DNA of 64,000 bases, taken from NCBI GenBank assembly GCA_963774015.1, contig CAVZDH010000001.1, forward strand, positions 451,064-515,063. Reading direction: 5' to 3'. The stretch is from an uncultured delta proteobacterium (GTDB lineage Bacteria > Desulfobacterota > Binatia > UTPRO1). The position numbers and the translations under genes are program-made. The notes beneath the pieces were generated by a model, which saw nothing but the letters and a program-made list of their open reading frames with translations, was not told the origin of the DNA and did not search any database. Shown one piece after another: positions 4,411 to 59,108 of the stretch (the first letter of the stretch is position 1; every line of letters begins with the position of its first letter).

Positions 4411-5043
4411 ATGCTCGACGACGCGATGAAGGCGCAGTTGACGCAGTACCTCACGCACCTGCGACGACCGATCCGGATCACGGCCGCGCTCGACGACGGC
4501 CCCGACTCCACGGCGCTGCGCGAGCTCCTCCGGGACGTCGCCGCGGCGTCGAGCATGGTGGAGGTCGTCGACGACGACGGCACGCCGGACGACGGGGCCG
4601 GCATCCGCCGTCCCTCGTTCGCGATCCATCTGCCGGGCGAGGCGGCGCGCGTGCGCTTCGCCGGCGTGCCGCTCGGGCACGAGCTCACGTCGCTCGTGCT
4701 CGCGCTGCTGCACGTCGGCGGACACCCGCCGAAGGTCGGCGCCGAGGTGCTGGCGCAAGTGGACGGCCTCGGCGGGACCTATCATTTCGAGACGTACTTC
4801 TCGCAGTCCTGTCAGAACTGTCCCGACGTGGTGCAGGCCTTGAACCTGATGGCCGTCCGCAATCCGAACGTCACGCACGTCGCGATCGACGGCGCGACCT
4901 TCCAGGCCGAGGTCGACGACGCGTCAGGTGATGGCGCCGGCGAGATCATCGTCGACGACCACGGGCGCACGAACGTCCCGGGCGTCTTTGCGGCCGGCGA
5001 CGTGACCACCGTGCACGACGAGTCCGCCGTAGCCTCGCAACCG
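4411..5043 (+). pseudogene. ahpF: ahpF remnant: AhpF N-terminal thioredoxin-like domain joined to the last ~30 residues, FAD/NAD domain deleted
   Basis: N-terminus matches AhpF (MLDDAMKAQLTQYL...RFAGVPLGHELTSLVLALL...SQSCQNCPDVVQALNLMAV...HVAIDGATFQAEVDD) then jumps to the AhpF C-terminal block GEIIVDDHGRTNVPGVFAAGDVTTV; ~300 aa of reductase core absent and downstream frame is nonsense. Confidence 0.7.
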
Positions 5044-5128
5044 GTCTGCGACGTCGCATGTGCTCCCCGGATTGACTGCGTGTGGGCCCTCGGCGAGAAC
5101 TCTCGGCGACGCAACGCCGAGAGGAATC

Positions 5129-6851
5129 ATGGGACGCGACATACTGCTTCGGGTGCTTGCCGTGGCGATGGCCTTCGGCGTGATGGTCGCTGGCGAATCC
5201 AAGGCGATCGCCTCGCCGATCTCGCTGTTGATCCCGCAGTCGACGGCGTTCACGGTGCTCGGTCACTCGTGCGGGGGGATCCAGGAGCAGGCCTTCGCGA
5301 CCGGCTTCGATGTGATGAGCGGCGATCCGACCGGTGACGTCTATCTGCAGACGCGTTGCGGTGGCAGCGGCAGGGGCGGCGGGTACCACACCACGACGTA
5401 CTCCGCCTGGGTCGCGGTGACCTGGGACTTCACGGGGGCGCCGGTGTCGCATGCGGTCCTCCCGTCCCCCCCGGCGGACGTCGACCCGAGCTTTTCGGCG
5501 TTCGATGGGTCCGGGAACGAGCTGTACGACGTGCTCAACGCGGTGAACGTGGCGCCGGCGAGCTGCGCGGTCGGCAACACGACCTATTGCACCTATCGAG
5601 CGTATCTCGTCCTGGCCTCCGGGTTCGTCGCCGCGCCGCGAGTGACGAGCGTGTCGGTGACCTCCGGGCCGGCCGCCGGTGGCACGAGCGTCGCCATCGC
5701 CGGAACCGGATTCACCGGCGCGACGGCGGTGACCTTCGGCGACGTCCCCGCGGCGGGCTTCACCGTGAACGCCGACACCTCCATCACGGCGGTCTCGCCG
5801 GCCGCGAGCGCAGGTACCGTCGACGTCGCGGTCATGACGGACGGTGGCACGAGCGCGGCGAGCGCGAGCGATCGGTTCACCTTCGTTGCCGCGCCCACCG
5901 TGTCGGGGATCGATCCCGACGGCGGTCCGGTCGACGGCGGGACTCTGGTGGCGATCAGCGGCGCGAGCTTCATCGACGTGATCGCGGTCTACTTCGGGGA
6001 GACGCCGGCGGGGTTCACCGTGAACGACGACGGGTCGATCACCGCGGTCTCACCGCCGGCCGAGGCTCCCGACACGGTCGAGGTCAGGGTCGTGACGGTC
6101 GGCGGAACGAGCGCCGATTCGGCGGCCTTCGCGTACACGACCTCCGCCCCGGGCTCGGTCTGCGGCGACGCGATCGTCGATCCCGGGGAGCAATGCGACG
6201 ACGGCGCCGCCGACGGTACGCCCGGCGATTGCTGCACCGCTACATGCACGTTCCGGACGGCGGGCACGGCCTGCGTCGACGACGGCAGCCTCTGTACCTC
6301 GGACGTCTGCGAGGGCGGTGCGTGCACGCACGTCGGCCGCGCCGGCGCTCGCGTGCACGCCGCCGGACGTCGCGGGGGGCGCATCCTTGCTCGTGCGTCG
6401 GCTGCGGTCGGGTCGGAACCAGGTGCAGCTCCTGTGGGGCAAGGGACCGACCGTTCCGCTCACGGCTTTCGGCGATCCCAGCGCCGGTGCGACGTTCCAG
6501 CTCTGCGTCTACGACGAGACGGGCTCCGGCACGCCGGCGCTCGCCGTGACGGGCTCGCCCTCGGAGAGCGGCGGCGGGCACTGGACGCGGACACGCACGC
6601 AATGGAGGTTCCGCAGTGCAACCGGGGCGCCCGACGGCATCACCGCGGTGACGCTCACGGGTGCGACGGTCCCGCTGAAGGCGAAGGTCCAGGTGAAAGC
6701 GACGACCGGACCACTGCCGGTGCCGCTTCCCTGGCGGCACGATCCGAGCGTCGTCGCGCAGCTGAGGACGTCGTCCGGTGCATGCTGGGGCGCCACCTTC
6801 TCGGCTCCGACGGTCGACTCGGCGACCGAGCTCAAGACGAAGTCGGATTGA
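5129..6851 (+). CDS. Secreted IPT/TIG-repeat protein with myxo-type cysteine-rich repeat and conserved C-terminal domain (frameshift near 6320-6350)
   Basis: Signal peptide MGRDILLRVLAVAMAFGVMVAG; three IPT/TIG-like repeats (VTSVSVTSGPAAGGTSVAIAGTGFTGA...); Cys-rich CGDAIVDPGEQCDDGAADGTPGDCCTATC; C-terminal block continues in a second frame (ORF 6318-6851) and is homologous to the C-terminus of the 53759-59008 protein. Confidence 0.6.
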
Positions 6852-7074
6852 GTGAAGCCCCTCGACGACTCGGATCGACGGTGTCCGATCCCGTCCTCCG
6901 CTCCCGCAAGTTCTTGCACGTCGCCCTTCCGGCGGGCGCAAACTCTGGCACGGTCGACCCACGATCGCGCCCGAGCGGCGACGCGCGGCACGGCCGTTTT
7001 CTGGCACTTCGCGTGCAACGGCCGCTTCGCATGAGCGCAACTCCCGTCTCCTGCTCGTTCCTCCGTACGCTCGC

Positions 7075-8178
7075 TTGACGACGCTCATGCTCACGGTGCT
7101 GGCGTTGTGGTTGCTGGCGGCCCTCGTCTATCGCTGGCTCGCCCTCGATGCCGTCGGCCGTCTTTGCACGCCGTCCGCTCCCGCCGTCGCCACGGCGGCG
7201 GCGCCGGCTCCATTCCAGGTGGTGGCGATTCGTCCGTTGCATGGGGCGGCGTCTTGGCTCGAGCCCTGTCTCGAGAGCCTCTGGCGCGAGGCCGCCGCGA
7301 CGCGTACGCCGCTCGTGATCGGTTGGACCGACAGCAACGATCCCGCGGGAGCGGTGGTCGCGTCGCTACAGGCGCGCGCCTCCTGGCCGGCCCTCGTGCG
7401 GGTCGGACCGGGCCCGTCCGGCGCCAATCCAAAGGTCGCGAACATGATCCAGATGACCTCGGGTGTCGCGGCCGACGTGTTGTTGCAGTCGGATGCCGAC
7501 GTGCGCGTCCCTTCGGGATACGTCGCGGCCATGACCGCGCCGTTCGCCGACCCGTCGGTCGGTCTCGCGACCTGCCCCTATCGCAGCGTTCCCGGGTCGG
7601 GAATCGCAAGCCGTCTCGACGCCTTGATGACCAACACGCACTTCCTGCCGAGTGCCTGCCTGGCGGTGCGCCTGGAAGGCCTCCATTTCGGCCTCGGCGC
7701 GACCATCGCCGTCCGTGCCTCGGCGCTGGAGCGCGCGGGGGGCCTCGCGGCCTTGCTCGGGACGCCCGCTGACGACTACATGCTTGCCCGCAACGTCGAG
7801 GCGGCGGGATCGCGGCTCGCGTGGGTGCCGATGGTGGTCGAGCATGCGGTCGACGAGCGGTCCTGGCGCGCCGTGCTGCGCCGTCACCTGCGATGGGCGC
7901 GGGTCACCCGAACCGTCCGGTTCTGGGGCTATCTCGGGCAGATGTTCACGCACGGCAGCGTGCCGATGCTGCTGGTGTCCGTGTACGTCGCGGCGACCGC
8001 GCGGCTCGCCGCCGTGTTCCTGCCGGTCGGCTGGTGGACGTTGCAGATGACGGCGCTCTGGCGTCAACGGTCGGCGCTCGGCTTGCGTGCCCGCGATCTC
8101 CCGCTCGTGCCACTCGCCGATCTCGGCGCGTTCCTCGTCTTCCTGGGGGGCATCGTCGGTCGCGCCGAGCCGAGCTGA
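7075..8178 (+). CDS. hpnI: Glycosyltransferase family 2, hopanoid-associated HpnI-like
   Basis: 367 aa membrane-anchored GT2-like protein (DADVRVPSGYV, ceramide-glucosyltransferase-like) immediately upstream of hpnJ/hpnK homologues. Confidence 0.65.
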   Translation: MTTLMLTVLALWLLAALVYRWLALDAVGRLCTPSAPAVATAAAPAPFQVVAIRPLHGAASWLEPCLESLWREAAATRTPLVIGWTDSNDPAGAVVASLQARASWPALVRVGPGPSGANPKVANMIQMTSGVAADVLLQSDADVRVPSGYVAAMTAPFADPSVGLATCPYRSVPGSGIASRLDALMTNTHFLPSACLAVRLEGLHFGLGATIAVRASALERAGGLAALLGTPADDYMLARNVEAAGSRLAWVPMVVEHAVDERSWRAVLRRHLRWARVTRTVRFWGYLGQMFTHGSVPMLLVSVYVAATARLAAVFLPVGWWTLQMTALWRQRSALGLRARDLPLVPLADLGAFLVFLGGIVGRAEPS

Positions 8179-8189
8179 CCGCGGTGACG

Positions 8190-9284
8190 ATGCCGGCCTT
8201 CGCCGTGGTGCTCTCGGCGCCGTACGGCACGCAACCGTCGGTGGCGGGCCTGACGCCGGCGGAGCGTACGCGCCGCGCGCTCGCGATGCAGCGGCACGAG
8301 GACATGCCGTCGGGCGACGATGCCCCGACGCTCTTCATCGCTGCCGATGCGCTCGTCGAACCCGATGCCATCGCGGCCCTGCTCGCAGCGGCGGCGCGAA
8401 AGGGGGCGGCGATCGCGGCGGGCGACGATCCCGAGCGTCCCGCGGTGATCGCGATGTCGGTGCGCGAGGCGCGGGCGCGTCGGTTGACGGCGACCGATCA
8501 GCTGGCCGGCTGCGCCGCGGCGCTTCGACGCGACGGCGGCGTCCAGATCGTCGACGTCGGCGAGGCGCTGTGTCTGCGGGTCGACCAACCCGCGACCGCG
8601 GCACGGGTGACCCGAATCCTCCTCGCGCGCCTCATCCGTCCCACCGACGGATTCCTCGCCCGCCACTTCGATCGCTACGTGTCGCGCCGTCTCTCCGTGC
8701 ATCTGGTCGCCCGCGGCGTTTCCCCCAACGTGGTGACCGTCGGGGCGACCTTGGTCGGGCTCGCGGGCGCCGGACTGCTTGCCGATGCCCATCGGCTGGG
8801 GCGCGTTCTCGGTGCGGCGCTCTTCGTGATCTCGACCATCTTGGACGGTTGCGACGGCGAGGTCGCCCGTCTCGCGCTCCGCTGTTCCGACTTCGGGCGA
8901 CGATTGGATCTCGTCGGCGACAACGTGGTCAACGCCGCGGTGTTCGCGGCGCTCGCCTACGCGCTCGCGCACGGCGCCGACGGCGGCATCTCGTCGGCGG
9001 TGGTGTGGGTCACGGCGGCGGGATTCGTGGTCGCGACCCTTACGGGATTCGTGTTCTCGAGCTGGCTCGCGCGCACTCGACGCGTCATCGAGCGCGATTG
9101 GTACGAGCGTCTCACGGGCCGCGACTTCGCGTACGTCATCCTCGTGCTCGCGATCGTCGGCCGCCTCGACTGGTTCGTGGGGCTGGCCGGCATCGGCTGT
9201 TTCGTCTTCGCCGCGGCCGTCCTGGCGTATTGGGCATGGCTGTCTCGGCAGCCGATGCCTCCCAGCGACCGCGGCGGTCAGTGA
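8190..9284 (+). CDS. CDP-alcohol phosphatidyltransferase family protein with N-terminal extension
   Basis: C-terminal half carries the CDP-OH transferase motif DGCDGEVARLALRCSDFGRRLDLVGD; N-terminal ~150 aa of unclear fold; ATG at 8190 just after the hpnI stop. Confidence 0.7.
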   Translation: MPAFAVVLSAPYGTQPSVAGLTPAERTRRALAMQRHEDMPSGDDAPTLFIAADALVEPDAIAALLAAAARKGAAIAAGDDPERPAVIAMSVREARARRLTATDQLAGCAAALRRDGGVQIVDVGEALCLRVDQPATAARVTRILLARLIRPTDGFLARHFDRYVSRRLSVHLVARGVSPNVVTVGATLVGLAGAGLLADAHRLGRVLGAALFVISTILDGCDGEVARLALRCSDFGRRLDLVGDNVVNAAVFAALAYALAHGADGGISSAVVWVTAAGFVVATLTGFVFSSWLARTRRVIERDWYERLTGRDFAYVILVLAIVGRLDWFVGLAGIGCFVFAAAVLAYWAWLSRQPMPPSDRGGQ

Positions 9285-10749
9285 AGGGAGGCGGCGGCGT
9301 CGGGGAGGGGCGTGTGCTCGGCGGTGCGCGGTTGGCGCCGTTGCGCCATGAAGGCGAAGAACTCCCGCGCCTCGCGCAACCGTCGGCGCATCACCTCGCG
9401 GTCGCGCAGCATGTCGCGCATGATGCGAAGGATCGGGCGCGGACGCAGATAGTAGGCGCGGTAGAAGCGCTCCAGCGCCTCGTGAATCTCGCCGCTCGGC
9501 AGGTCGCCGTAGGAGAGCACGGCCTCCTGAATGCCGCCGCCCTGGACGAGATCGGCCGACGCCGACCCCGCAGCCAACCCCGCTCGCGGGCCTGACGGTA
9601 GAGCTCCGTTCCCGGGTAGGGTGCGGCGAGCGAGACCTGCAGGCTGTAGGGATCGATCGTTTTCGCGAAGTCGATCGTCTGCTCGATCGTCTGTCGCGTC
9701 TCTCCCGGCAGGCCGAGAATGAAGGTCCCGTGGATCAGGATGCCGAGCTTCCGGCAGTCCCGCGCGAATTGATGCGCGCGATCGATCCGGGTCCCCTTCT
9801 TGATGTTGTTCAGGATCTCCTGACTCCCGGTCTCGAAGCCCACGAGCAGCAGGCGGAGTCCGTTCTCACGCATCACGCGCAGCGTCTCGAACGGCACGTT
9901 CGCCTTGGCGTTGCACGACCACGTCATGCCGAGCTTGCCGAGACCTCGGGCGATCGCCTCGGCGCGCGGGCGATCGTCGGTGAACGTGTCGTCGTCGAAG
10001 AAGAACTCACGTACCTGCGGGAAGAGACGTCGTGCGTGCGCCATCTCGGCGACGACGTGCTCGACGCTCCGGGTCCGGTAGGTGTGCCCGGCGATGGTCT
10101 GCGGCCAGAGGCAGAAGCTGCACCGGCTGCGGCATCCCCGGCCGGTATAGAGCGACACGTAGGGATGCAGGAGGTAGCCGATGTCGTAGTGGTCGACGGT
10201 GAGATGGCGTGCGTAGACGTCGGTAACGAAGGGAAAGGCGTCGAGGTCGTGAATGGGCGGCGCCGCCGGCGTCCGCCGCACGCGGCCGTCGGGCGTCCGG
10301 TGGGCGACCCCCGCGACCTCGGACGCCGGCCGCCCCGCTGCCACGTCGCGAATCGCGTAGTCGAACTCGCCGGTGGTCACGAAATCCACGGCGGGCGCCA
10401 GGGCCAACGTCTCCTCCGGAAGCACCATCGTGTGCGCGCCGACGAACGCGATCTGCACGTCGGGATAGGTCTCCTTCAAGCGCGCCGCGAAGCGACTGTC
10501 GGGTACGACCGAGGGTGTGGAGGTGTGGATCACGACCAGGTCGTGGCCGGCGGCGCGCGCGATCACCTGCTCGACGGTGAGGTCGTCGGGAGGCGCGTCG
10601 ATCAGCGTGGAGTCGGGTACCAATGCGGCGGCTTGCGCGAGCCACGTCGGGTACCAGAAGGAGCGCACCTCGCGCCGCGCCTGGTAGCGCGCGCCGGCGC
10701 CGCCGTCGAAGCCTTCGAACGAAGGAGGATTCAGGTAGAGCGTCCGCAC
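9278..10749 (-). CDS. hpnJ: Hopanoid biosynthesis-associated radical SAM protein HpnJ (frameshift near C-terminus, about 9560-9600)
   Basis: N-terminus MRTLYLNPPSFEGFDGGAGARYQARREV and radical-SAM region GRGCRSRCSFCLWPQ typical of HpnJ; conserved C-terminal block (GGIQEAVLSYGDLPSGEIHEALERFYRAYYLRPR) lies in a different frame (ORF 9278-9577). Confidence 0.8.
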
Positions 10750-10773
10750 CGCGACATCCCGTCCGGGACGGGA

Positions 10774-11814
10774 CTAGTGAACGCCCCCCAGGCTGTCAAT
10801 CGGGGGTACGACATCCGTGAGCGCGCGCTCCGGCGCCGTGCCGGCGAGCGGGCGGGTGGGGGCGAGGGCGAGATACGCCACGAGTCCGACCAGCGCCCAC
10901 GTGAGTTGCTCGACCCGCAGCACGAGCGAGAGCAGCAAGCCGAGTCGAGCGGGCAGGCCCACCAGCGCGACGGCCACCATGCGCGCGCCCTCTTGGGCCC
11001 CGAGCCGTGCCGGGACGAAAAAGGAGAAGAGGTCGAGACCGATGCTCACCAGGAAAATTTCGACGACCGTACGAGCCACGACCGGCACGCCGGCGCCGGC
11101 GAGAAACGCACCCACTTGCACGGCGGCGATGGTCGTCGCGGCGAGGTGGAGGCCGAACGCGCGCCAGAGAGCGCCCGGGTATTCGGCGTGGAAGGCGTGG
11201 AGCCGTCGGTCGAGCGCGCGCGCGCCATTCGCAAGCCGTGCGCCGTACCCGACGCGGGTGAATCGCCGCGTGAGCGAGTGGCCGGTGACGAAGGCTCCGA
11301 GGCGTCCGCGCCGCTGCAGCACGAAGAAGGCACCGACGCCGATCGCCAGCAGGGCAGCCGCCGCCACGAGGGCGAGCCGCGCCGTGGTAGGAAAGCCGGC
11401 GTGGGCGAGGATCACGACCAGTCCGCAGACGCCGAACGCGCAATCCGACAGCGTGTCGGCGAGGCGATCGACGGAGATGGCCGTCACGTTTTCGAGCGCG
11501 GAGACGTGCCCGGCGAAGCTCGCGCGCACCACCTCGCCGCCGATCGTACCCGAGGGGGTCACGGTGTTGACCGCGTAGCTCGCCAGGCGGGCCCAGAACA
11601 TGCGTGCGAACGGCGGGCGCACGCCGGGGCGATAGCACCATCGCCAGGCGACGGTACGGACCGCATGCTCGACGCCGAACAGCGCCACGATCACCGGAAC
11701 GGTCCAGCCGAGCGCGAGCGCTTCGCGCCAGAGCTCCGAGACTCCGCTACGGGCGACCAGCAGCCCGAGCCCGAGACCGGAGAGCGCGAGCAGCATGCCG
11801 TGGATCCAGCGCAT
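10774..11814 (-). CDS. UPF0104/flippase-like integral membrane protein (HpnL-like)
   Basis: 346 aa, 8+ hydrophobic segments, lysylphosphatidylglycerol-synthase-like TM architecture; sits between hpnJ and hpnK. Confidence 0.5.
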   Translation of the reverse strand: MRWIHGMLLALSGLGLGLLVARSGVSELWREALALGWTVPVIVALFGVEHAVRTVAWRWCYRPGVRPPFARMFWARLASYAVNTVTPSGTIGGEVVRASFAGHVSALENVTAISVDRLADTLSDCAFGVCGLVVILAHAGFPTTARLALVAAAALLAIGVGAFFVLQRRGRLGAFVTGHSLTRRFTRVGYGARLANGARALDRRLHAFHAEYPGALWRAFGLHLAATTIAAVQVGAFLAGAGVPVVARTVVEIFLVSIGLDLFSFFVPARLGAQEGARMVAVALVGLPARLGLLLSLVLRVEQLTWALVGLVAYLALAPTRPLAGTAPERALTDVVPPIDSLGGVH

Positions 11815-11895
11815 TCCAGGCAGAGTTCACGGCGTGCGGGTCGGCGTCAACCCGGCATGGGGGCAGGTGCCGATCGCCCGTCTCTCGTGGCCCGC

Positions 11896-12753
11896 TCAGG
11901 ACGGCGGGCGGGTGGACGCCAGTTTTCCGTAGCTCGTGAGCACGACGCCGCGCGCCGCCACGATCGCGCGGGCGTCCGCATCCACCAACGCCTCAAGCTC
12001 GGCCCGTGGCGCCCGCCGCGGATCGTCGTCGGCGGCCGTGGAGGGGTGCAGGTAGATCTCGGTCACGCCGGCAGGAAGGGCGGCGAGCAGCGCCCGCAAG
12101 TGATCTCGCGTCATTCGTCCATCCTGGTAGAGACCCCACACCCGGTCGGCCGTCGCGAGCCCGGCCGCCCGCACCTTTCGGGCCGCATGCCGCCCGAGCC
12201 AGCGAAACATCAGCCAATGACTGAGCTTGTACCCGAGCCGCCCGTGATCCAGCCGCAGATTCAGACGCAGGTCGTCACGGACGACGCGCAACGCCGGGAT
12301 CCGATACTCCGCCGCGCACTCCAGCAGGATCGTCAAGACCTGCGGGTGCATGTGGATGTGCTGATGACCGGTGACGTGATCGAGCCGGAGGCCCGTCGCG
12401 TGGAAGCGCGCGAGCTGCGCCCGGATCTCGTCGACGAGCTCCCGACGAGCACTGCGCGAGAACTGGTAGCGAAATCCCGCCCAGGGCGAGCTCGCCGGCA
12501 GGCGTCCGTCGGCGTCCACGAGGTGGGGGATCCGCGCGGCAGGCAATGCCGAACGTGCGAGCGAGAGCGCGAGGTGGAGCCCCACGGCGAGGCTCGGGGT
12601 GGCATGCGCCGCCGCCACCGCCGGCTCCCACGCGGCGCCGGTCACCATCATGCTCGCCGTCGTGAGGATGCCGCGGCGATGAGCGTCGACGACCGCCGCG
12701 TTGACCGCGTCCGACGCGCCGAAGTCGTCGGCGGTCACGATGAGCTGGCGCAT
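11896..12753 (-). CDS. hpnK: Hopanoid biosynthesis-associated YdjC-like deacetylase HpnK
   Basis: MRQLIVTADDFGASDAVNAAV N-terminus and HxH motif GHQHIHMHP typical of YdjC/HpnK carbohydrate deacetylases. Confidence 0.75.
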   Translation of the reverse strand: MRQLIVTADDFGASDAVNAAVVDAHRRGILTTASMMVTGAAWEPAVAAAHATPSLAVGLHLALSLARSALPAARIPHLVDADGRLPASSPWAGFRYQFSRSARRELVDEIRAQLARFHATGLRLDHVTGHQHIHMHPQVLTILLECAAEYRIPALRVVRDDLRLNLRLDHGRLGYKLSHWLMFRWLGRHAARKVRAAGLATADRVWGLYQDGRMTRDHLRALLAALPAGVTEIYLHPSTAADDDPRRAPRAELEALVDADARAIVAARGVVLTSYGKLASTRPPS

Positions 12754-12935
12754 GAGGCGCGAGGTTATCGACCGCCGACGTGGGCGCCGCAAGCACGTGG
12801 CTCCGTATTGTCACTCGGCTGGCGCGCGGGATAAACGGGGACGCTTCATCCATGGGTCGTCGGCGAAGGTCACTCATACGCGCACGCGGGCGCGGTTTGC
12901 GCGTCGGTCGAGGCGACGGCCGGGGTCCGACGTGG

Positions 12936-14282
12936 ATGGCTGTGCTCGCGGCGGCATGGGTGGCCTGTGTGCCGACGGCCGCGCGCGGCTCGGGACCGCC
13001 GTTGACGTTGTCCGCTGCGATCGCCATGGCGCTGCACCAGAGCGGCGGTGCGCGGATCGCCGCCCTCGAGTCCGGGCAGGCGCAGGACGCGCTCGGCGTG
13101 GCACGCAGCTCCTATCTCCCCCATCTCGTCGTCTCGAGCGGCATCGGCTATTCCAATCGTCAGAACGAAAAGCTCCGCGCCGTCGACGCCGAGGGACACG
13201 AGAGGGTGTACGGCCTGCAGTCGATCGGCGCGCGCGACGGGTGGTTCAACGTGGAGGTGGAGCAGCTGATCGTCGACCTCGAGCGCTGGCGGCGCATCGA
13301 TCAACGCGCGCTCGGCGCGGCGGCGGCCGCCGCCGCGGCGGACGAGCAGCGCGGCGCCGCCGTACGCGACGTGACCGTGGCGTTTGCGAACGTGCTGCGC
13401 TCCGACGAGCTGCGTGCGCTCGCGCTCGAGCGCGCCCGCCAGGCGTCGTGGCTCGACGAGCAGGCCGCGTTCTTGCTGCGTGCCGGTCGCGTCCTTTCCG
13501 CCGAACGCGAGCACGCCGCGATTGCAGCGGAGGAGGCCACGCTCGAGACCCGGACGCGCGACGACCAGCTCGTGCAGGCGCGCACGACGCTTCAGCGCGC
13601 GATCGGTGATCCGGCCCTCGACGTGTCGCGGCTCGATCCCTCGAGCCTTCCAGATCCCGAGCTGCCTTCCGACGATCTCGCGTCCGATCGGATCCTGGCG
13701 GCGACGCCCGCGCTGCGCGTCCTGGATCTCCGCAGGCGCGTCGAGGAGAGCGGCGTCGGTGCGGCGCGTGCGGAGCGCTACCCGACGGTGGGTCTCCGCG
13801 CGGGGTATTCCGACTACGGCCCGAACCGCTACGACAACTATCCGGACCAGGTGGGCGTGCACGTGGCCGTGCAGGTGCCGATCTTCGACGGCAACCGAGC
13901 GACCTACGACATCGCGAGCGCGAGCAAAGCCGCCGAGATCGCGCGTCTCCGCTATCGCAACGAGCTCGAGGACACCCGCGCGCGGGTGCGGGATCTCGCC
14001 AATCGTCTCGTCGCGGCGCGCGAGCGCGCGACGCTCGCGGAGCGGCGTGCGGCGCTCAGCCGCGAGCAAGTGCGGCTGGTGGATCTCCGACTGCGGGAGC
14101 AGCGCGGGACATTGGCGGAGGCGGAGGCCGCGCGCGACGCCTTCGGTCGCGATGCGAGCGCCGCCGTCGACGCCCGCTACGACCGGATCGAGATCTGGGC
14201 GACCGTGATGGCGGAGAGCGGACGGCTGCTGTCGGCGCTCGGAGGCGGGTCCGTGCGCTCCGACGGGAGCGTGACGCCATGA
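12936..14282 (+). CDS. TolC-family outer membrane efflux protein
   Basis: Signal peptide MAVLAAAWVACVPTAARG; duplicated OEP repeats with SYLPHLVVSSGIGYS and RYPTVGLRAGYSDYG motifs; first gene of efflux operon. Confidence 0.75.
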   Translation: MAVLAAAWVACVPTAARGSGPPLTLSAAIAMALHQSGGARIAALESGQAQDALGVARSSYLPHLVVSSGIGYSNRQNEKLRAVDAEGHERVYGLQSIGARDGWFNVEVEQLIVDLERWRRIDQRALGAAAAAAAADEQRGAAVRDVTVAFANVLRSDELRALALERARQASWLDEQAAFLLRAGRVLSAEREHAAIAAEEATLETRTRDDQLVQARTTLQRAIGDPALDVSRLDPSSLPDPELPSDDLASDRILAATPALRVLDLRRRVEESGVGAARAERYPTVGLRAGYSDYGPNRYDNYPDQVGVHVAVQVPIFDGNRATYDIASASKAAEIARLRYRNELEDTRARVRDLANRLVAARERATLAERRAALSREQVRLVDLRLREQRGTLAEAEAARDAFGRDASAAVDARYDRIEIWATVMAESGRLLSALGGGSVRSDGSVTP

Positions 14283-14292
14283 GGAGCGCCGC

Positions 14293-15426
14293 GTGATCGC
14301 GGGGGCCTGGCTGCTTCGCCACCGTCGGCTGGTCACCGCCGCGCTGCTGATCGCGGCGCTCGTCGTGATCTGGTCGAGCCGGCGGCCCGTGCTGGCGGTC
14401 CAGAGTGACGAGGTCAGGCGCGGTCGACTCTTGGTGACGGTCACCACCAACGGGAAGGTCGAGCCGATCGACGACGTCGAGGTGCGGGCGCGACTCGAGG
14501 GGCGCGTGCTCGAGATCGTCGACCCGGGCGTCCGGGTCGCGGCCGGGGAGGTGTTGGCGCGGCTCGACGGTGGGCTCGCCGCCGCCGCGCTCGCGGCCGC
14601 GCAGTCCGAGGAGCGCGGGGCCGAGGAGGAGCTTCGGGCGGCACGCGCCGCGACGGCGCTCGCCAAGGATCGCCTGGCGGTCGACCGGCGCCTCCAGTCG
14701 GAAGGAGCACTCACGCGCGAGCGCGTGACGGAGAGCCTCGGGGAGATGCGCGCCGCCGAAGCCCGGCTCGCCTTTTTGGAGCACGACGTGCCCCTGCGGG
14801 TGGCGGCGCTCGACCTCCGCATCCGGGAGCTCGCGGCCGAGCGCGACGCCGCCACCGTGAGCGCGCCCATTGCCGGCACGGTGTATCGAACCCAGGCCAA
14901 GATGGGAGAGCTGGTCCGCCTCGGGGATCCGCTGGTGTGGATCGCGGACCTCGAGCGCTTGCGGGTGCGGGCCAACGTCGATCAGGTCGACCTCGGCCGC
15001 GTCCAAGCCGGACAGTCGGTGCGCATCGCCTCGAACGCGTTCCCGACGCGGGGCTGGACCGGTCGCATCACCGAGGTCACCCCGCACGTCGTCACGCGGG
15101 AGAATCGCTCCATCGCGGAAGGCCTCGCGGACATCGACCCGCCGCCGGACGGGCTCGTGCCGGGCATGACGGTCGACGTGGAGATCGCCGTGGCGGACGA
15201 TCACGACGTCCTGCAGGCATCCGCGGACGCGATCGTCGGCGATCAGCGACAACCGTTCGTGTATCGGATCGACGGCGGCCGCATTCGACGCACGCCGGTC
15301 AAGATCGGGCGCACGACCGTGGCGGCCGTGGAGGTCCTGGAGGGACTCGCGGCCGGCGATCGCGTCGTCGTGAGCCCGCGGCCGGACCTGGTCGACGGCG
15401 CGCGCGTCGAAGTGGCGAGCGAGTGA
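14293..15426 (+). CDS. Efflux periplasmic adaptor subunit (HlyD/MacA family)
   Basis: N-terminal TM anchor, long coiled-coil region, lipoyl/beta-barrel motifs (APIAGTVYRTQAKMGELV). Confidence 0.8.
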   Translation: MIAGAWLLRHRRLVTAALLIAALVVIWSSRRPVLAVQSDEVRRGRLLVTVTTNGKVEPIDDVEVRARLEGRVLEIVDPGVRVAAGEVLARLDGGLAAAALAAAQSEERGAEEELRAARAATALAKDRLAVDRRLQSEGALTRERVTESLGEMRAAEARLAFLEHDVPLRVAALDLRIRELAAERDAATVSAPIAGTVYRTQAKMGELVRLGDPLVWIADLERLRVRANVDQVDLGRVQAGQSVRIASNAFPTRGWTGRITEVTPHVVTRENRSIAEGLADIDPPPDGLVPGMTVDVEIAVADDHDVLQASADAIVGDQRQPFVYRIDGGRIRRTPVKIGRTTVAAVEVLEGLAAGDRVVVSPRPDLVDGARVEVASE

Positions 15427-16133
15427 CCGTGCCGGCCGCGCATACCGCGCCGGCGACGGTCATCCGCCTGTCGAACGTGGTGAAGAGCTACGGTCGCAAC
15501 GGCGCCAACGTCGCCGCCCTGCGCGGCGTGGACCTCGCCATCCGCGACGGCGAGCTCACGGCCATCATGGGTCGTTCCGGATCGGGAAAGTCGACGTTGC
15601 TGCACATCATCGGACTGATCGACGCGGAGTACGACGGACAATATTGGCTCGACGGCACGCTGGTCTCCGGGCACACGCCCGAGGAGCTGGCCGCGCTCCG
15701 CAATCGCACCATCGGGTTCGTCTTTCAGTCGTTCTTCTTGCTCCCGCAGTTGTCGATCCTGGAGAACGTCGCGTTGCCTGCGCTCTATGCCCGCGATCGT
15801 CCCGCCGACGAGTGCCGGGAGATGGCGCGCGCTCGGCTCGAGGAGATGGGACTCGCGCCCCGTCTCGACCACAAGCCGGGCGAGCTCTCGATCGGGCAGC
15901 GCCAGCGCGCGGCGATCGCCCGCGCCCTGGTGAACCGCCCGCGGGTGCTCCTCGCCGACGAGCCGACCGGCGCGCTCGACAGCCGAACCGCCGACGAGAT
16001 CCTCGACATCTTTCATCGACTCCATGCAGACGGTGCGACGATCGTCATGGTCACCCACGATCCCGACGTCGCCGCGGCGGCGGAGCGCGTCATCCACGTA
16101 CGCGATGGCCAAACGAGCGACGGGCTGGCTTAG
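15423..16133 (+). CDS. ABC transporter ATP-binding protein (MacB/LolD-type ATPase)
   Basis: Walker A GRSGSGKST, ABC signature LSIGQRQR, Walker B LLADEPTGALD, H-loop; GTG start overlaps upstream stop (GTGA). Confidence 0.9.
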   Translation: MTVPAAHTAPATVIRLSNVVKSYGRNGANVAALRGVDLAIRDGELTAIMGRSGSGKSTLLHIIGLIDAEYDGQYWLDGTLVSGHTPEELAALRNRTIGFVFQSFFLLPQLSILENVALPALYARDRPADECREMARARLEEMGLAPRLDHKPGELSIGQRQRAAIARALVNRPRVLLADEPTGALDSRTADEILDIFHRLHADGATIVMVTHDPDVAAAAERVIHVRDGQTSDGLA

Positions 16134-17307
16134 GCTGCTGCTGCGGTTCGCGCTCGACGGTCTCGCCGGACAGCGGGGTCGTTCGGGGCTCACGATCCTC
16201 GGCATGGCGATCGGGACGGCGAGCGTCGTCGGCGTCGTCTCGATCGGGCTCCTCGGTCGCGAGTACGTCGTCGGCTTGATCGAAGGGGTCGGGTCGAACT
16301 TGGTGTTCACCTACAGCCACAATCAAGGCGTCGATCCCGAAGAGATCGGCTTCGAGGACGTCGACGCCTTCCGGCAGATGCCGCGCGTGCGCGACGTCGC
16401 ACCGGTGCTCATCGACAGCCAGGTCCTCTCCGTCCGCGGGCAACCGCAAAACGTCGACGTGCTGGGCACCACTCCGTCGTACGCTCGCGTCCGCAACATG
16501 CTCGTGGTCGCCGGACGATTCCTCACCGACCAGGAGGAACGGAGCGGCGAGAAAGTCGCAGTCCTGTCGCAGGAGCTCGCCCAACGGACCGCGGGCACGT
16601 CGGGCCTGGGCGGCTGGATCCGGCTCTATGACCTCCGCTTCCGCGTCGTCGGCATCTACAAGGAGGGCGTCGAGAGCGCTGCGGCCGTGCAAAAGAGCGA
16701 GGCCGCCGGCATCACCGCGATCATTCCGTTTTCGACGCTGCGCAGTCTCTCGCAAAAGCGCGCGGTCGACGTCGTCTACATGCAGGCCAGTAGCGCCGAT
16801 ACGGTGGCGCGTGTGGTGCGGAGCGTGACCGACGTGCTCCGCGCGCGCCACCGCGACGTGGGAAACTTCGCGGTCCAGTCGCTCGACCAGTACCTCGCGC
16901 TCGCAAAAACCGTCTCCGATACCCTGACGCTGGTGCTCATCGCGATCGCGGCCATCTCGCTGCTGGTCGGCGGCATCGGGATCATGAACATCATGCTGGT
17001 GACGGTCACCGAGCGGACGCGCGACATCGGCATTCGCTTGGCCTTGGGCGCCCACCGCCGCGACATCCTGCTGCAGTTTCTCTTCGAGGCCGGCATCCTG
17101 AGCTTCGCAGGCGGCGTCATCGGCGTGGCGCTCGGCGCCGGCGTTCCGCTGTACCTCGGGGCGATCTACGAGGTCGACGTGCCGGTCTCGCTGGCGAGCG
17201 TCCTGATCGCCTTTCTGGTGTCGGTCGCGGTCGGCATCTTCTTCGGCCTCTATCCGGCTCGCCGGGCCGCGGCGATGAACATCGTCGACGCGCTCGGGTA
17301 CGAGTGA
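16105..17307 (+). CDS. ABC transporter permease (FtsX/MacB-like)
   Basis: N-terminal TM, large periplasmic domain, C-terminal FtsX-like 3-TM bundle (GIGIMNIMLVTVTERTRDIGIRLALGA). Confidence 0.85.
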   Translation: MAKRATGWLRLLLRFALDGLAGQRGRSGLTILGMAIGTASVVGVVSIGLLGREYVVGLIEGVGSNLVFTYSHNQGVDPEEIGFEDVDAFRQMPRVRDVAPVLIDSQVLSVRGQPQNVDVLGTTPSYARVRNMLVVAGRFLTDQEERSGEKVAVLSQELAQRTAGTSGLGGWIRLYDLRFRVVGIYKEGVESAAAVQKSEAAGITAIIPFSTLRSLSQKRAVDVVYMQASSADTVARVVRSVTDVLRARHRDVGNFAVQSLDQYLALAKTVSDTLTLVLIAIAAISLLVGGIGIMNIMLVTVTERTRDIGIRLALGAHRRDILLQFLFEAGILSFAGGVIGVALGAGVPLYLGAIYEVDVPVSLASVLIAFLVSVAVGIFFGLYPARRAAAMNIVDALGYE

Positions 17308-42522: not shown

Positions 42523-43110
42523 CCCGATCGCCAGATGATGACGACTGGTGATTCGCATCGTCGACTCCAGTCGCGCGAGGTTTCGCGCCGCTACGAAGAC
42601 CGCATGCGGTCCGTTGAGGGGGCCCGGTGGATCGCTACACTCATTGCGCGATCAGCGGAGGTGTCAAAGGAATTCGTCCACCACACTCACGAAAACGTGA
42701 TCCATTTCGGCATACGGATACCCGAGGATCGTGTCGTCATGGCGACGATCCGTGACGAGCTCCAGCTGCATCGCGCATGCCAACGCGTGACGCTGCCATC
42801 GCCCAGGGATTGTGTCGCCGTGATGTCGCTGCCGTTCTCGAATCGGGAAATTCTCCGCCGCCTTTTCTCAGCGCATGGACGGCGCGCCGCGGCCGCGGCG
42901 GCGCGCGATCACGTGGCCTTGCTACGACGGGGCGAATTGGGGAGTGCGACGACCAGGGAGGTTCCGCGGCAGTGGCGGTGATTTCGGGAACCGCGACAGA
43001 GGCGAGCGGTAGGCAGCGACGCGTGGTTCTTGCAGGCCGCAGTGCTGGCAGGCGGACGCCGCCCGCCATTGCGGCGAGCGGCGTCCCGTCCGTCCGAACG
43101 ACTACTTCTT

Positions 43111-47128: not shown

Positions 47129-47896
47129 CTAGGCTGCGTTCTCGTAGAGCAACGCGTCCGTGATGTCCGCCAGCGGCCGGCAGTAGTCCTCGGCGAGCGC
47201 CTCGATCGATTCACCGGCGCGTTTTCGTTCAGCCACGATTCGGGTACGGATATCGGTTCCGGCGATCACGGGTCGCCCATAGGCGTAGCGTGGGTGAATC
47301 AGGATGCGTCGGGCACTCGGAGCGGGGCCATCGATCTGGGCTTCTGTAGCGAAGGGAAACACGCCGATAGCGCCTGCCGGGTCGAATTGAATGCGTTCCA
47401 AGTAGCGGATTAGGACGTCACGCATGCCAACCTGGGCAACCGATGGGCTATCGGAGATATTCAACACAACCGCATCTTCGAGCGAATCCAGAAACAGACT
47501 GTACCCGTCCGTCAGCATCCGCGACGTTGCTAACGGATGTTCGGATTTGAATTCCCTGCGCAGATGCACTATTGCGTTGCGTACTTTCGGTAGCTTGATC
47601 CCGTAACGACGCCGTACCGAATCGAGTACAAAAACTTCCACGAGATTCGTAAACGACAGCAAACCGCGTTCGCGGTCAGCTATCTTGATCAGCGGATGCC
47701 ACGTCCGGTGACCGTCAGATACCGGATAGTCTCGACCGTACACCCAGGTGCGAACGGTGCTCGCCGGAACCTTCAAGTAGCTCGCGGCGCTAGCGACTGG
47801 GTAGTTCGGGACATGTCGCGGATCGACATCGCGGTAGCTCAGTATCGTGTCCGCTTTTGGCATCTTGACGTACCTGCACCAAGCATACACGGGCAC
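47129..47896 (-). CDS. HTH plus DUF433 domain protein (putative antitoxin/regulator)
   Basis: C-terminal DUF433 signature RILIHPRYAYGRPVIAGTDIRTRIVAERKRAGESIEALAEDYCRPLADITDALLYE; N-terminal HTH-like segment (AASYLKVPASTVRTWVYGRDYP); central region unassigned. Confidence 0.65.
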   Translation of the reverse strand: MPVYAWCRYVKMPKADTILSYRDVDPRHVPNYPVASAASYLKVPASTVRTWVYGRDYPVSDGHRTWHPLIKIADRERGLLSFTNLVEVFVLDSVRRRYGIKLPKVRNAIVHLRREFKSEHPLATSRMLTDGYSLFLDSLEDAVVLNISDSPSVAQVGMRDVLIRYLERIQFDPAGAIGVFPFATEAQIDGPAPSARRILIHPRYAYGRPVIAGTDIRTRIVAERKRAGESIEALAEDYCRPLADITDALLYENAA

Positions 47897-48060
47897 GGCA
47901 GTTCAAGGGAGAGCCGTTTGCATTCGCTAAGTTAGCGGACTGCCGAGAACATCAAGGGGCTGGTCGTTCTCCGGTCGTGCGTCGAGACGGTAGATTACCG
48001 GGCGACAATCAGGTGAAACTTTTGCTTGACACTCAAGTATTATTGTCATATCATTGCGGC

Positions 48061-59008: not shown

Positions 59009-59058
59009 CGGGATGTCCTCCAGAGTGCACGAGCGACGAAGCGGAGCCCGAGCACGAA

Positions 59059-59108
59059 GCAGATCGAACCTATCGAGGTGAAAACGTCGGTTCACGCACA
59101 AAGACTGC
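59059..59108. repeat. Left copy of ~50-bp imperfect direct repeat flanking a lower-GC cassette
   Basis: AGCAGATCGAACCTATCGAGGTGAAAACGTCGGTTCACGCACAAAGACTG vs 60071-60120 AGCAGATCGAATGACATCGAAGATTCGAACGTCAGTTCACGCAGAGATTG (~80% identity with small indels); on the minus strand the stop TGA of the right copy corresponds to CGA in this copy. Confidence 0.6.

What the first reader, a model, noticed from the sequence alone, without database searches (positions are those of the whole stretch)
7075..12792. Hopanoid side-chain modification cluster with an embedded CDP-alcohol phosphatidyltransferase gene
hpnI-like GT2, hpnJ (radical SAM) and hpnK (YdjC deacetylase), which together are associated with bacteriohopanepolyol glucosamine/cyclitol-ether formation, are clustered with an HpnL-like UPF0104 membrane protein. 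Between hpnI and hpnJ sits a gene with a clear CDP-alcohol phosphatidyltransferase motif (DGCDGEVARLALRCSDFGRRLDLVGD) and a ~150-aa N-terminal extension. A CDP-alcohol transferase here suggests a phospho-alcohol head-group transfer step linked to hopanoid or lipid modification that is not part of the textbook hpn pathway.
Basis: partly seen in the sequence, partly recalled or inferred. Interest (0 to 1): 0.45.

Follow-up and report, generated by a model that had tools for sequence, protein, structure and literature searches.

The report
Hopanoid-cluster CDP-alcohol head-group transferase
A membrane enzyme of the kind that attaches phosphate-linked head groups sits inside a hopanoid side-chain gene cluster, and in other bacteria it is conserved beside, and even fused to, those hopanoid genes, which points to an undescribed step in making these membrane lipids.

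Summary
Window 7075-12792 carries two convergent operons: hpnI-like GT2 then a CDP-alcohol phosphotransferase (CDP-AP), and hpnK, hpnL-like, hpnJ.

The CDP-AP (8190-9284, 364 aa) has the complete catalytic signature. Its model matches Archaeoglobus AF2299 over its full length. The ~150-aa N-terminal extension is an AF2299-type cytidylyltransferase-like domain that lacks the nucleotide-binding motif. It is not PgsA, PssA, PIP synthase or a true IPCT/DIPPS.

The linkage is not coincidental:
- Of 80 related loci from species-representative genomes, 36 have an adjacent hpnL-like gene and 28 have hpnI, hpnJ or hpnK within 10 kb.
- These linked proteins form one clade spanning about eight lineages.
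- Single polypeptides fuse HpnJ to the CDP-AP (28 protein clusters). Others fuse the CDP-AP to an HpnL-like domain or to a nucleotidyltransferase.
- In Rokubacteria/NC10-type loci the operon continues into an HpnN-like transporter gene.
- Twenty-six loci add a HAD, nucleotidyltransferase, ATP-grasp, aminotransferase and dehydrogenase module. This window lacks it.

Best reading: a dedicated head-group phosphotransferase working with HpnI/K/J, with HpnL as the likely flippase. Substrates are untested, no shc gene was seen near any locus, and hpnJ here has a frameshift. I found no paper describing this.

The parts
7075..8178 (+). hpnI-like family-2 (GT21-type) membrane glycosyltransferase, 367 aa. 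It is the first gene of the plus-strand pair.
   Evidence: PF13506 142 bits. TIGR03472 HpnI 232 bits, below the 310 cut-off. 75% identical to the GT directly upstream of the CDP-AP orthologue in L081.
8190..9284 (+). AF2299/DIPPS-type CDP-alcohol phosphotransferase, 364 aa. It starts 11 nt after the hpnI stop codon.
   Evidence: PF01066 45 bits. Best NCBIfam hit is IPCT/DIPPS NF041135 at 79.5 bits, far below the 580 cut-off. Profile against PDB: 4mnd E=6e-22, 4o6m E=3e-21. AlphaFold model pLDDT 93; Foldseek top hit AF2299 4o6n over 363 columns, TM 0.70/0.76. About 73 near-full-length homologues at 43-71% identity.
8190..8639 (+). N-terminal cytosolic cytidylyltransferase-like domain (residues ~1-150), probably non-catalytic.
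   Evidence: Alpha/beta fold in the model, superposing on the AF2299 N-domain. The profile aligns VAGLxxxERTRRAL with AF2299 LLGLTLRERIEKTL. The GxGxR...PKP motif is absent here and in the hpn-linked clade, but present in unlinked outgroup proteins.
8844..8921 (+). CDP-alcohol phosphotransferase signature D219 G220 x2 D222 G223 x2 A226 R227 x8 G236 x3 D240 x3 D244.
   Evidence: Read directly from the sequence. All signature positions are invariant or nearly invariant in the 45-sequence alignment A1.
9278..10749 (-). hpnJ, a B12-binding radical-SAM enzyme, with a frameshift between 9571 and 9550. Once the frame is corrected, its 3' end overlaps the 3' end of the CDP-AP gene.
   Evidence: TIGR03471 649 bits over residues 1-395. 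tblastn with a full-length HpnJ: residues 12-403 in frame -2 (10749-9571), residues 408-485 in frame -1 (9550-9317), stop at 9278-9280.
10774..11814 (-). hpnL-like flippase-type membrane protein (LPG_synthase_TM / UPF0104), 346 aa.
   Evidence: PF03706 73 bits. TIGR03476 96 bits, below the 196 cut-off. Homologues lie directly beside the CDP-AP in 36 of 80 loci and are fused to it in L073 and in P0247, P0283, P0346 and P0347.
11896..12792 (-). hpnK, a YdjC-family deacetylase. It is the first gene of the minus-strand operon. The likely start is ATG 12753.
   Evidence: TIGR03473 277 bits (cut-off 233) and PF04794 228 bits. The profile match begins at residue 14.

Best explanation
The gene at 8190-9284 encodes a dedicated, non-housekeeping CDP-alcohol phosphotransferase of the AF2299/DIPPS branch. 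It works in the same pathway as HpnI, HpnK, HpnJ and HpnL.

Proposed mechanism:
1. At the cytoplasmic face of the inner membrane, the six-helix catalytic domain takes a CDP-activated alcohol. This is most likely a soluble CDP-polyol or CDP-aminopolyol, made by a separate nucleotidyltransferase. That enzyme is encoded beside the gene in many relatives but not in this window.
2. It transfers the phospho-alcohol onto a hydroxyl of the extended hopanoid head group that HpnI (adds GlcNAc), HpnK (deacetylates) and HpnJ (ring contraction to the cyclitol) build on bacteriohopanetetrol.
3. The product would be a phosphodiester-linked composite hopanoid.
4. The HpnL-like protein, which resembles the flippase domain of MprF, then moves the product to the outer leaflet. 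In some lineages an HpnN-like RND pump exports it.

The N-terminal domain is a degenerate cytidylyltransferase fold, probably structural or regulatory.

Shown here by computation: gene identities, an intact catalytic signature, the fold, clade-wide synteny and the gene fusions. Inferred: the donor, the acceptor, the order of steps, the flippase role of HpnL, and that the lipid is a hopanoid.
For: 1. The enzyme looks competent and specialised.
- The signature is complete and conserved.
- The model is confident and matches AF2299 over its full length.
- The nearest profiles are IPCT/DIPPS and AF2299, not phospholipid synthases.

2. Synteny.
- 36 of 80 loci have an hpnL-like gene adjacent on the same strand.
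- 28 of 80 have hpnI, hpnJ or hpnK within 10 kb.
- The lineages are Myxococcota, Binatia, Elusimicrobia, Methylomirabilota/Rokubacteria, Gemmatimonadota, Planctomycetia, a gammaproteobacterium and Acidobacteriaceae.
- Linked proteins form one clade in a neighbour-joining tree. Outgroup proteins with an intact nucleotidyltransferase motif show no hpnI, hpnJ or hpnK genes nearby.

3. Gene fusions.
- HpnJ::CDP-AP is a single ORF in L020, L041, L067 and L069. In L020, HpnJ scores 787 bits over residues 13-479 and the DIPPS-like domain covers 657-869.
- 28 protein clusters (294 member sequences) carry this fusion. Independent gene calls confirm it.
- HpnL-like::CDP-AP occurs in L073, and CDP-AP::HpnL-like in four family representatives. 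One representative is CDP-AP::nucleotidyltransferase.
- HpnI::HpnJ fusions occur in the same lineage.

4. The operon hpnI, hpnJ::cdp, hpnL, hpnN-like has 4-nt gene overlaps.

5. The closest relatives keep the hpnI then CDP-AP order.

6. Support from the literature.
- HpnI and HpnJ domains were found only in genomes with SHC and HpnH (bioRxiv 10.1101/2025.07.29.667474).
- SHC occurs in Rokubacteria, NC10, Elusimicrobia, Acidobacteria and Planctomycetes (PMC7306690).
- AF2299 binds CDP-glycerol in a small hydrophilic donor pocket (PMC4634129).
Against: - No shc, hpnH or hpnG gene lies in the 64-kb window or within 10 kb of any of the 80 loci. Hopanoid production by these uncultured organisms is therefore inferred, not seen.
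- The HpnI-like and HpnL-like proteins score below the curated cut-offs of their families.
- PMC4634129 states that AF2299 and DIPPS do not process lipids. It also states that six-helix CDP-APs use soluble acceptors. This argues against a lipid acceptor.
- I found no report of a phosphodiester-linked bacteriohopanepolyol in the papers I read.
- This window lacks the nucleotidyltransferase module, so the donor's source here is unknown.
- hpnJ carries a frameshift in this window.
Confidence: 0.55

Rival explanations
1. A GPI-like glycolipid that does not involve hopanoids. The CDP-AP would make a phosphatidyl-polyol, such as a phosphatidylinositol-phosphate-like lipid, from CDP-diacylglycerol and a soluble polyol phosphate. 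The divergent HpnI-like glycosyltransferase would then add GlcNAc to that lipid. HpnK would deacetylate it, HpnJ would contract the ring and HpnL would flip the product.
For: - Six-helix CDP-APs are reported to take soluble acceptors (PMC4634129).
- The next-best family matches are archaetidylinositol-phosphate and PIP synthases.
- HpnI-like, the enzyme that would recognise the lipid, is the least conserved member (33-37% identity between phyla) and scores below its cut-off. HpnJ stays 54-80% identical.
- A HAD phosphatase is co-clustered in 26 loci, as would be needed to remove the acceptor's phosphate.
- No shc gene lies near any locus.
Against: - HpnJ and HpnK pass their equivalog cut-offs.
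- HpnI and HpnJ domains were reported only in genomes with SHC and HpnH.
- An HpnN-like triterpenoid RND transporter follows hpnL in the fusion-type operons.
- The donor-side relatives AF2299 and DIPPS use soluble CDP-alcohols. A CDP-AP::nucleotidyltransferase fusion points to a CDP-alcohol made on site rather than CDP-diacylglycerol.
Confidence: 0.2
2. The CDP-AP makes a soluble phosphodiester solute, of the di-myo-inositol-phosphate or diglycerol-phosphate type, as AF2299 and DIPPS relatives do. It would merely be co-regulated with hopanoid head-group genes as part of a stress response.
For: The closest characterised relatives make or are thought to make solutes and do not process lipids. 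Nucleotidyltransferase and HAD partners match the IPCT/DIPPS/phosphatase logic.
Against: - Translational fusion to a flippase-like membrane domain and to HpnJ is hard to explain for a solute synthase.
- The gene sits inside operons, with 4-nt overlaps, between a lipid glycosyltransferase and membrane transport proteins.
- No inositol-phosphate synthase family was among the conserved neighbours.
Confidence: 0.07
3. It is an ordinary housekeeping phospholipid synthase (PgsA, PssA or Pcs) that happens to lie between hpnI and hpnJ in this genome.
For: Source annotations of homologues call them 'phosphatidylglycerophosphate synthase'. A supplementary table of the Belin-lab hopanoid preprint (bioRxiv 10.1101/2025.07.29.667474) lists a generic IPR000462 family among the genes within 20 ORFs of shc.
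Against: - Scores are far below every phospholipid-synthase cut-off.
- It has the two-domain AF2299 architecture.
- Synteny is conserved across many phyla and the protein is fused to pathway partners.
Confidence: 0.03

Closest known systems
AF2299 of Archaeoglobus fulgidus (PDB 4O6M/4O6N/4Q7C)
   Same: Same two-domain architecture: an N-terminal cytidylyltransferase-like cytosolic domain, a juxtamembrane helix and six transmembrane helices, with the full CDP-AP signature. Foldseek TM 0.70/0.76 over 363 columns. Profile E=3e-21.
   Different: Only about 21% identical. AF2299 is archaeal, has no known lipid partner genes and is reported not to process lipids. The present clade is bacterial and is linked or fused to HpnJ, HpnL and HpnI. 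It has DNxVN after the fourth aspartate where AF2299 and DIPPS have DRxxD.
Bifunctional IPCT/DIPPS (A. fulgidus AF0263, PDB 4MND; NCBIfam NF041135)
   Same: Best sequence-family match (79.5 bits; PDB profile E=6e-22). Shares domain order and the RD motif between TM4 and TM5.
   Different: The score is far below the 580-bit cut-off. The N-domain lacks the GxGxR...PKP CTP-binding motif, so it cannot make its own CDP-alcohol. The genomic context is lipid genes, not solute genes.
Putative 'alternative' inositol-lipid cluster of Bacteroidetes (Heaver et al. 2022, PMC9246714)
   Same: [quoted passage not shown] The proposed logic is Kennedy-like: a CDP-alcohol is transferred to a lipid alcohol. This matches the nucleotidyltransferase, CDP-AP, HAD and HpnL-like set of the extended loci.
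   Different: That cluster is tied to inositol-phosphate synthase and sphingolipid or diacylglycerol acceptors. It has no hpnI, hpnJ or hpnK genes and is itself functionally unconfirmed. The present window has no nucleotidyltransferase or HAD gene next to the CDP-AP.
HpnI, HpnK, HpnJ pathway to BHT-glucosamine and BHT-cyclitol ether (Burkholderia cenocepacia genetics, as reviewed in PMC13459092 and PMC9092360)
   Same: hpnJ and hpnK pass their equivalog cut-offs, and hpnI-like and hpnL-like genes accompany them.
   Different: The published pathway has no CDP-alcohol phosphotransferase, and HpnL's function is stated to be unknown. Here a CDP-AP is embedded in the cluster, and elsewhere it is fused to pathway members.
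MprF (lysyl-phosphatidylglycerol synthase plus flippase)
   Same: A head-group-modifying catalytic domain is joined to an LPG_synthase_TM flippase-type domain in one protein. The CDP-AP::HpnL-like fusions have the same layout.
   Different: The catalytic chemistry is unrelated: tRNA-dependent aminoacylation versus CDP-alcohol phosphotransfer. This is an analogy of layout, not homology of the synthase part. The description of MprF comes from my own knowledge of the family.
Pactamycin aminocyclopentitol genes (GT PtmJ, radical-SAM PtmC/PctE, dehydrogenase PctP, aminotransferase PctC; PMC9092360)
   Same: The extended loci combine a glycosyltransferase, a deacetylase, an HpnJ-type radical-SAM enzyme, a Gfo/Idh/MocA dehydrogenase and an aminotransferase. 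That toolkit would convert a GlcNAc glycoside into an extra-aminated cyclitol.
   Different: I did not compare sequences with the Ptm/Pct proteins. This module is absent from the window.

Membership tests
Class I CDP-alcohol phosphotransferase (PF01066) | Signature D-x2-D-G-x2-A-R-x7-8-G-x3-D-x3-D | tested here: met
   D219, D222, G223, A226, R227, G236, D240, D244 are present and invariant or nearly invariant in alignment A1.
Class I CDP-alcohol phosphotransferase (PF01066) | Pfam score above the gathering threshold | tested here: met
   45.1 bits against 22.
Class I CDP-alcohol phosphotransferase (PF01066) | Integral membrane protein with at least six transmembrane helices around the signature | tested here: met
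   The AlphaFold model (pLDDT 93) has a juxtamembrane helix at 155-174 and long helices from 179 to 352. It superposes on the transmembrane domains of AF2299, DIPPS and PIPS.
Class I CDP-alcohol phosphotransferase (PF01066) | Catalytic transfer of a phospho-alcohol from a CDP-alcohol with release of CMP | not testable with these tools
   Requires an enzyme assay.
Bifunctional IPCT/DIPPS (NF041135) | Score above the curated cut-off of 580 bits | tested here: not met
   79.5 bits, matching only profile positions 191-336.
Bifunctional IPCT/DIPPS (NF041135) | Catalytic N-terminal cytidylyltransferase with the GxGxR...PKP motif | tested here: not met
   The N-terminus reads MPAFAVVLSAPYGTQPSVAGL..., with no Gly-rich loop or PKP. 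The motif is present in outgroup proteins such as L011 and L064-L074.
AF2299-type two-domain CDP-AP | Cytidylyltransferase-like N-domain packed on a six-helix CDP-AP domain | tested here: met
   Foldseek hit to 4o6n_A: 363 aligned columns, TM 0.70/0.76, E=3.6e-11.
Housekeeping phospholipid synthases (PgsA, PssA, PIP synthase) | Score above the curated cut-offs | tested here: not met
   pgsA 18.8 vs 109; pssA 31.1 vs 107; PIP synthase 42.7 vs 170; archaetidylinositol-phosphate synthase 43.7 vs 180.
HpnJ (TIGR03471) | Score above the 577.6-bit cut-off; B12-binding plus radical-SAM domains | tested here: met
   648.7 bits; PF02310 and PF04055 both present. The reading frame is broken near 9550-9571.
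HpnK (TIGR03473) | Score above the 232.6-bit cut-off; YdjC fold | tested here: met
   277.2 bits; PF04794 228 bits.
HpnI (TIGR03472) | Score above the 310-bit cut-off | tested here: not met
   232.4 bits over nearly the full length; GT21 domain 142 bits. It is best called HpnI-like.
HpnL (TIGR03476) | Score above the 195.65-bit cut-off | tested here: not met
   95.8 bits over the full length; PF03706 72.9 bits against 33.4. It is best called HpnL-like.
Hopanoid (hpn) biosynthesis cluster | Presence of squalene-hopene cyclase and HpnH in the same genome | tested here: inconclusive
   None in the 64-kb window (DxDDTA motif scan and Pfam of neighbouring genes) or within 10 kb of the 80 loci. The rest of the genome could not be searched.

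The most novel reading that the evidence does not exclude
These clusters make a class of hopanoid that has not been described: a bacteriohopanepolyol whose glucosamine or cyclitol head group, or whose tetrol itself, carries a phosphodiester-linked polyol or aminopolyol. The CDP-AP would install this group from a CDP-alcohol. HpnL would be the dedicated flippase, which would give the long-orphan HpnL family its first function. The producers would be abundant uncultured soil and groundwater lineages: Rokubacteria, NC10, Binatia, Elusimicrobia and Myxococcota.
Probability: 0.35. Interest if true: 0.8.

Novelty: new variant of a known kind. Interest (0 to 1): 0.6.

Why it matters
Hopanoid side-chain chemistry is used as a biomarker in geochemistry and shapes bacterial membrane robustness. 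Yet HpnL has no known function, and the enzymes behind many composite bacteriohopanepolyols are unknown.

A conserved CDP-alcohol phosphotransferase that is fused to HpnJ or to an HpnL-like domain gives a concrete hypothesis to test: a phosphodiester-linked head group, made at the inner leaflet and then flipped. It also gives defined operons for heterologous expression, and mass shifts to look for in soil and groundwater lipidomes.

If the lipid turns out not to be a hopanoid, the same genes would define a bacterial GPI-like glucosamine/cyclitol phospholipid pathway. That would also be new.

Tried and rejected
- Looking up the window's own contig by exact protein failed, so the rest of the genome could not be read. 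Cluster look-ups gave no names or accessions.
- Squalene-hopene cyclase motif scans of the window and of the 80 loci found nothing real. The single hit, in L052, lies in a non-coding-looking frame.
- Radical-SAM genes next to some loci (L023, L027, L010) are not HpnH: 39-84 bits against a cut-off of 225.
- The promoter and terminator scan of 6400-13200 was uninformative: 0 promoter-like sites, and the 4 terminator-like sites all lie inside genes.
- The MacAB-TolC-like efflux operon beside hpnK was considered as part of the system. I rejected it because it is not conserved in relatives.
- The five-gene module (HAD, nucleotidyltransferase, ATP-grasp, aminotransferase, Gfo/Idh/MocA) was searched for in the window and is absent. 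I first guessed its ATP-grasp member was an inositol-type kinase. Its model instead matches LysX, ArgX, Ddl and RimK amide ligases.
- P0343 (radical SAM plus CDP-AP) gave no BLAST hit to the window's HpnJ, so I did not count it as an HpnJ fusion.
- The Belin-lab preprint's supplementary table lists an IPR000462 family near shc, with frequency 1409. Its labels look partly misaligned, and I could not see which genomes carry it. I treated it as a caveat on novelty only.
- The AlphaFold-database fold library was unavailable.

Full report
**The sequence.** The window is about 70% G+C. Third-position G+C and homology pick out five real genes in 7075-12792.
- On the plus strand, an hpnI-like GT2/GT21 glycosyltransferase (7075-8178) is followed after 11 nt by a 364-aa CDP-alcohol phosphotransferase, CDP-AP (8190-9284).
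- On the minus strand lie hpnK (12792 or 12753 to 11896), an hpnL-like membrane protein (11814-10774) and hpnJ (10749 to about 9278).
- The two operons converge.

NCBIfam and Pfam give these scores:
- HpnJ 649 bits (cut-off 578) and HpnK 277 bits (cut-off 233) pass.
- HpnI 232 bits (cut-off 310) and HpnL 96 bits (cut-off 196) fall short, but both match their profiles over the full length and carry clear GT21 and LPG_synthase_TM domains.

hpnJ has a frameshift between 9571 and 9550. Its last 78 residues continue in another frame to a stop at 9278-9280. Other genes in the window also look frame-broken. Several related assemblies carry 'MFD' long-read-style bin and contig names, which I take as a hint of long-read sequencing. 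An assembly indel is therefore as likely as a true pseudogene.

**The CDP-AP itself.** The quoted motif is residues 219-244, and all eight signature residues are present. They are invariant or nearly invariant among 45 homologues.
- The best family hit is bifunctional IPCT/DIPPS, at only 79.5 bits against a 580 cut-off. It covers the linker and the first transmembrane helices.
- pgsA, pssA and PIP-synthase models score far below their cut-offs.
- A profile of the family finds A. fulgidus IPCT/DIPPS (4MND, E=6e-22) and AF2299 (4O6M, E=3e-21) in the PDB. It also weakly aligns (2.1 bits, not significant on its own) the N-terminal VAGLxxxERTRRAL stretch with the N-domain of AF2299.
- An AlphaFold model (pLDDT 93, pTM 0.88) matches AF2299 over 363 columns, TM 0.70/0.76, including the N-terminal domain.
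- So the '150-aa extension' is the AF2299-type cytidylyltransferase-like domain.
- The GxGxR...PKP nucleotide-binding motif of real IPCT domains is missing here and in all hpn-linked relatives. It is intact in unlinked outgroup proteins.

PMC4634129 describes AF2299 and DIPPS as enzymes that do not process lipids. It reports a small hydrophilic donor pocket that holds CDP-glycerol in AF2299, and notes that six-helix CDP-APs use soluble acceptors.

**Is the linkage conserved?** A search of 5.8 billion proteins found about 73 near-full-length homologues at 43-71% identity, all from metagenomes or MAGs. A full HMMER scan of 1.84 billion cluster representatives gave 607 hits at E<=1e-30.

Eighty loci were fetched from species-representative genomes. 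I scanned them with the window's five proteins:
- 41 have an hpnL-like gene within the flank, and in 36 it is adjacent on the same strand.
- 19 have hpnJ, 23 have hpnK and 17 have hpnI. In all, 28 have at least one of the three.
- The taxa are Myxococcota and 'delta proteobacterium' MAGs, Candidatus Binatia, Elusimicrobia, Methylomirabilia/Rokubacteria, Gemmatimonadetes, Planctomycetia, an Ectothiorhodospiraceae MAG and an Acidobacteriaceae MAG.
- In a neighbour-joining tree of the catalytic core, the linked proteins, including the window's, form one clade. The outgroup, which has intact nucleotidyltransferase domains, has no hpn neighbours.
- The closest relative with context (L081; CDP-AP 57% and HpnI 75% identical) keeps the hpnI then CDP-AP order.

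**Gene fusions.**
- In L020, L041, L067 and L069, HpnJ and the CDP-AP are one ORF of about 885 aa.
- NCBIfam confirms a full-length HpnJ (787 bits, residues 13-479) followed by the DIPPS-like domain (residues 657-869) in L020.
- Searching with that protein found 28 clusters at 90% identity, holding 294 member sequences of 842-886 aa. Each carries both Pfam domains at about 99% query coverage.
- Independent JGI and ENA gene calls show the operon GT21, then radical-SAM+CDP-AP (883 aa), then LPG_synthase_TM, then a further gene, with 4-nt overlaps.
- In L067 and L069 that further gene is an HpnN-like RND transporter (about 530 bits against a cut-off of 752; the sterol transporter BstA is a lower-scoring hit, after both HpnN models).
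- L073 encodes HpnL-like::CDP-AP in one 816-aa ORF.
- Among the top 150 family representatives, four are CDP-AP::LPG_synthase_TM and one is CDP-AP::NTP_transferase.
- HpnI::HpnJ fusions also exist in the same lineage.

These fusions tie the CDP-AP to HpnJ, HpnL and a nucleotidyltransferase much more firmly than adjacency alone.

**An extended module in relatives.** Twenty-six loci carry at least three genes of a five-gene set next to the CDP-AP and hpnL pair. Seventeen of those also have hpnI, hpnJ or hpnK. The set comprises:
- a HAD hydrolase;
- an NTP_transferase;
- an orphan ATP-grasp protein;
- a class-III aminotransferase;
- a Gfo/Idh/MocA dehydrogenase.

The ATP-grasp protein has no Pfam hit. 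Its model (pLDDT 94) matches LysX, ArgX, Ddl and RimK amide ligases. The dehydrogenase is nearest to sugar and scyllo-inositol dehydrogenases, and the aminotransferase to omega-transaminases.

This module is not in the window. It suggests two things:
- A separate nucleotidyltransferase supplies the CDP-alcohol. This replaces the dead N-domain and agrees with the CDP-AP::nucleotidyltransferase fusion.
- The head group is further aminated and amidated. A precedent is the pactamycin dehydrogenase/aminotransferase pair acting on a GlcNAc glycoside, upstream of an HpnJ-like radical-SAM enzyme (PMC9092360).

The same four families appear in the unconfirmed 'alternative' inositol-lipid cluster of Bacteroidetes: nucleotidyltransferase, CDP-AP, HAD and a lysyl-PG-synthase-like protein (PMC9246714). 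That is the closest published analogue.

**Mechanism.** The best-supported reading is that the CDP-AP is an accessory head-group phosphotransferase of the HpnI/K/J pathway. It would act at the cytoplasmic face, and the HpnL-like protein would move the product across the membrane, laid out like MprF. I put 0.55 on this.

The main rival (0.2) is that the CDP-AP first builds a phosphatidyl-polyol, which the divergent HpnI-like enzyme then glycosylates. That would be a GPI-like lipid without hopanoids. It fits the 'soluble acceptor' rule and the absence of shc near any locus.

Against the rival:
- HpnI and HpnJ domains were reported only in genomes with SHC and HpnH.
- An HpnN-like transporter is in the operon.
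- SHC is known from the same phyla.

A soluble-solute role (0.07) and a coincidental housekeeping synthase (0.03) are poorly compatible with the fusions.

**Novelty.** Two recent hopanoid surveys state that HpnL's function is unknown, and their main texts do not mention a CDP-alcohol transferase. No paper in the library combines CDP-alcohol transferases with hopanoid clusters in a relevant way.

One caveat: a supplementary table of the Belin-lab hopanoid preprint (bioRxiv 10.1101/2025.07.29.667474) lists a generic IPR000462 family among genes within 20 ORFs of shc. The text does not discuss it, and I could not resolve which genomes carry it.

The enzyme family and the hpn genes are both known. 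The clade, its fusions and the implied step are not. I rate this a new variant of a known kind, with interest 0.6.

Noticed in passing
window 49197-51130 (+): A group II intron. Rfam D1-D4 domain at 49197-49421 (180 bits) and the intron 3' domain at 51009-51083, enclosing a reverse-transcriptase ORF at 49562-51130. It lies in a lower-GC stretch (42-51 kb, GC 0.61-0.66) together with an IS1-like transposase fragment at 47869-48969.
   Followed up: partly
window 9550-9571 (-), 4411-5337 (+), 5060-7078 (+): hpnJ is frame-shifted. The AhpF-like ORF keeps only a 32-residue Pyr_redox_2 match. The TIG/Cys-rich ORF decays into Arg-rich sequence after about 400 residues. Several broken genes within 6 kb suggest assembly indels rather than selective decay.
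   Followed up: partly
window 12780-17307 (+): A TolC-like, HlyD-like and MacB-type ABC efflux operon runs divergently from hpnK. It is not conserved next to the cluster in relatives, so it is probably unrelated.
   Followed up: yes
L011-L013, L015, L017, L022, L023, L029, L031, L035, L038, L050, L056: A different conserved cluster around outgroup CDP-APs that have an intact nucleotidyltransferase domain. It comprises NTase-CDP-AP, a methyltransferase, a Polysacc_synt flippase, a second CDP-AP, an outer-membrane efflux protein, an HpnM-like MlaC protein (80 bits against a cut-off of 160) and a radical-SAM protein. It occurs in unclassified 'bacterium' MAGs with about 3.7-3.9 Mb chromosomes, and in Gemmatimonadota and Latescibacterota.
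   Followed up: partly
P0401, P0404, P0406: HpnI::HpnJ fusion proteins (GT21 plus radical SAM, 711-914 aa) in Rokubacteria-type metagenome sequences. This is a second fusion within the same pathway.
   Followed up: no
L025 4509-6350 (+): In an Elusimicrobia MAG, the HpnI-like and CDP-AP reading frames are in phase and separated by a single stop codon, with no obvious start codon for the CDP-AP part. This could be a fusion broken by a sequencing error, or read-through.
   Followed up: no
L019, L045, L047, L049, L054, L055: Elusimicrobia members of the clade are short (222-284 aa). They lack the N-terminal domain altogether and start just before the TDGFFARHFDR juxtamembrane helix. The N-domain is therefore dispensable in some lineages.
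   Followed up: no
window 53759-59365 (-) and 39919-42651 (-): An 1868-aa ORF with PD40 and Cys-rich DUF4215 repeats, and a 910-aa SdrD_B/DUF7450 repeat protein. These, and the Cys-rich TIG protein at 5060-7078, are surface proteins. I recall such Cys-rich repeat proteins as typical of Myxococcota, but did not test this here.
   Followed up: no
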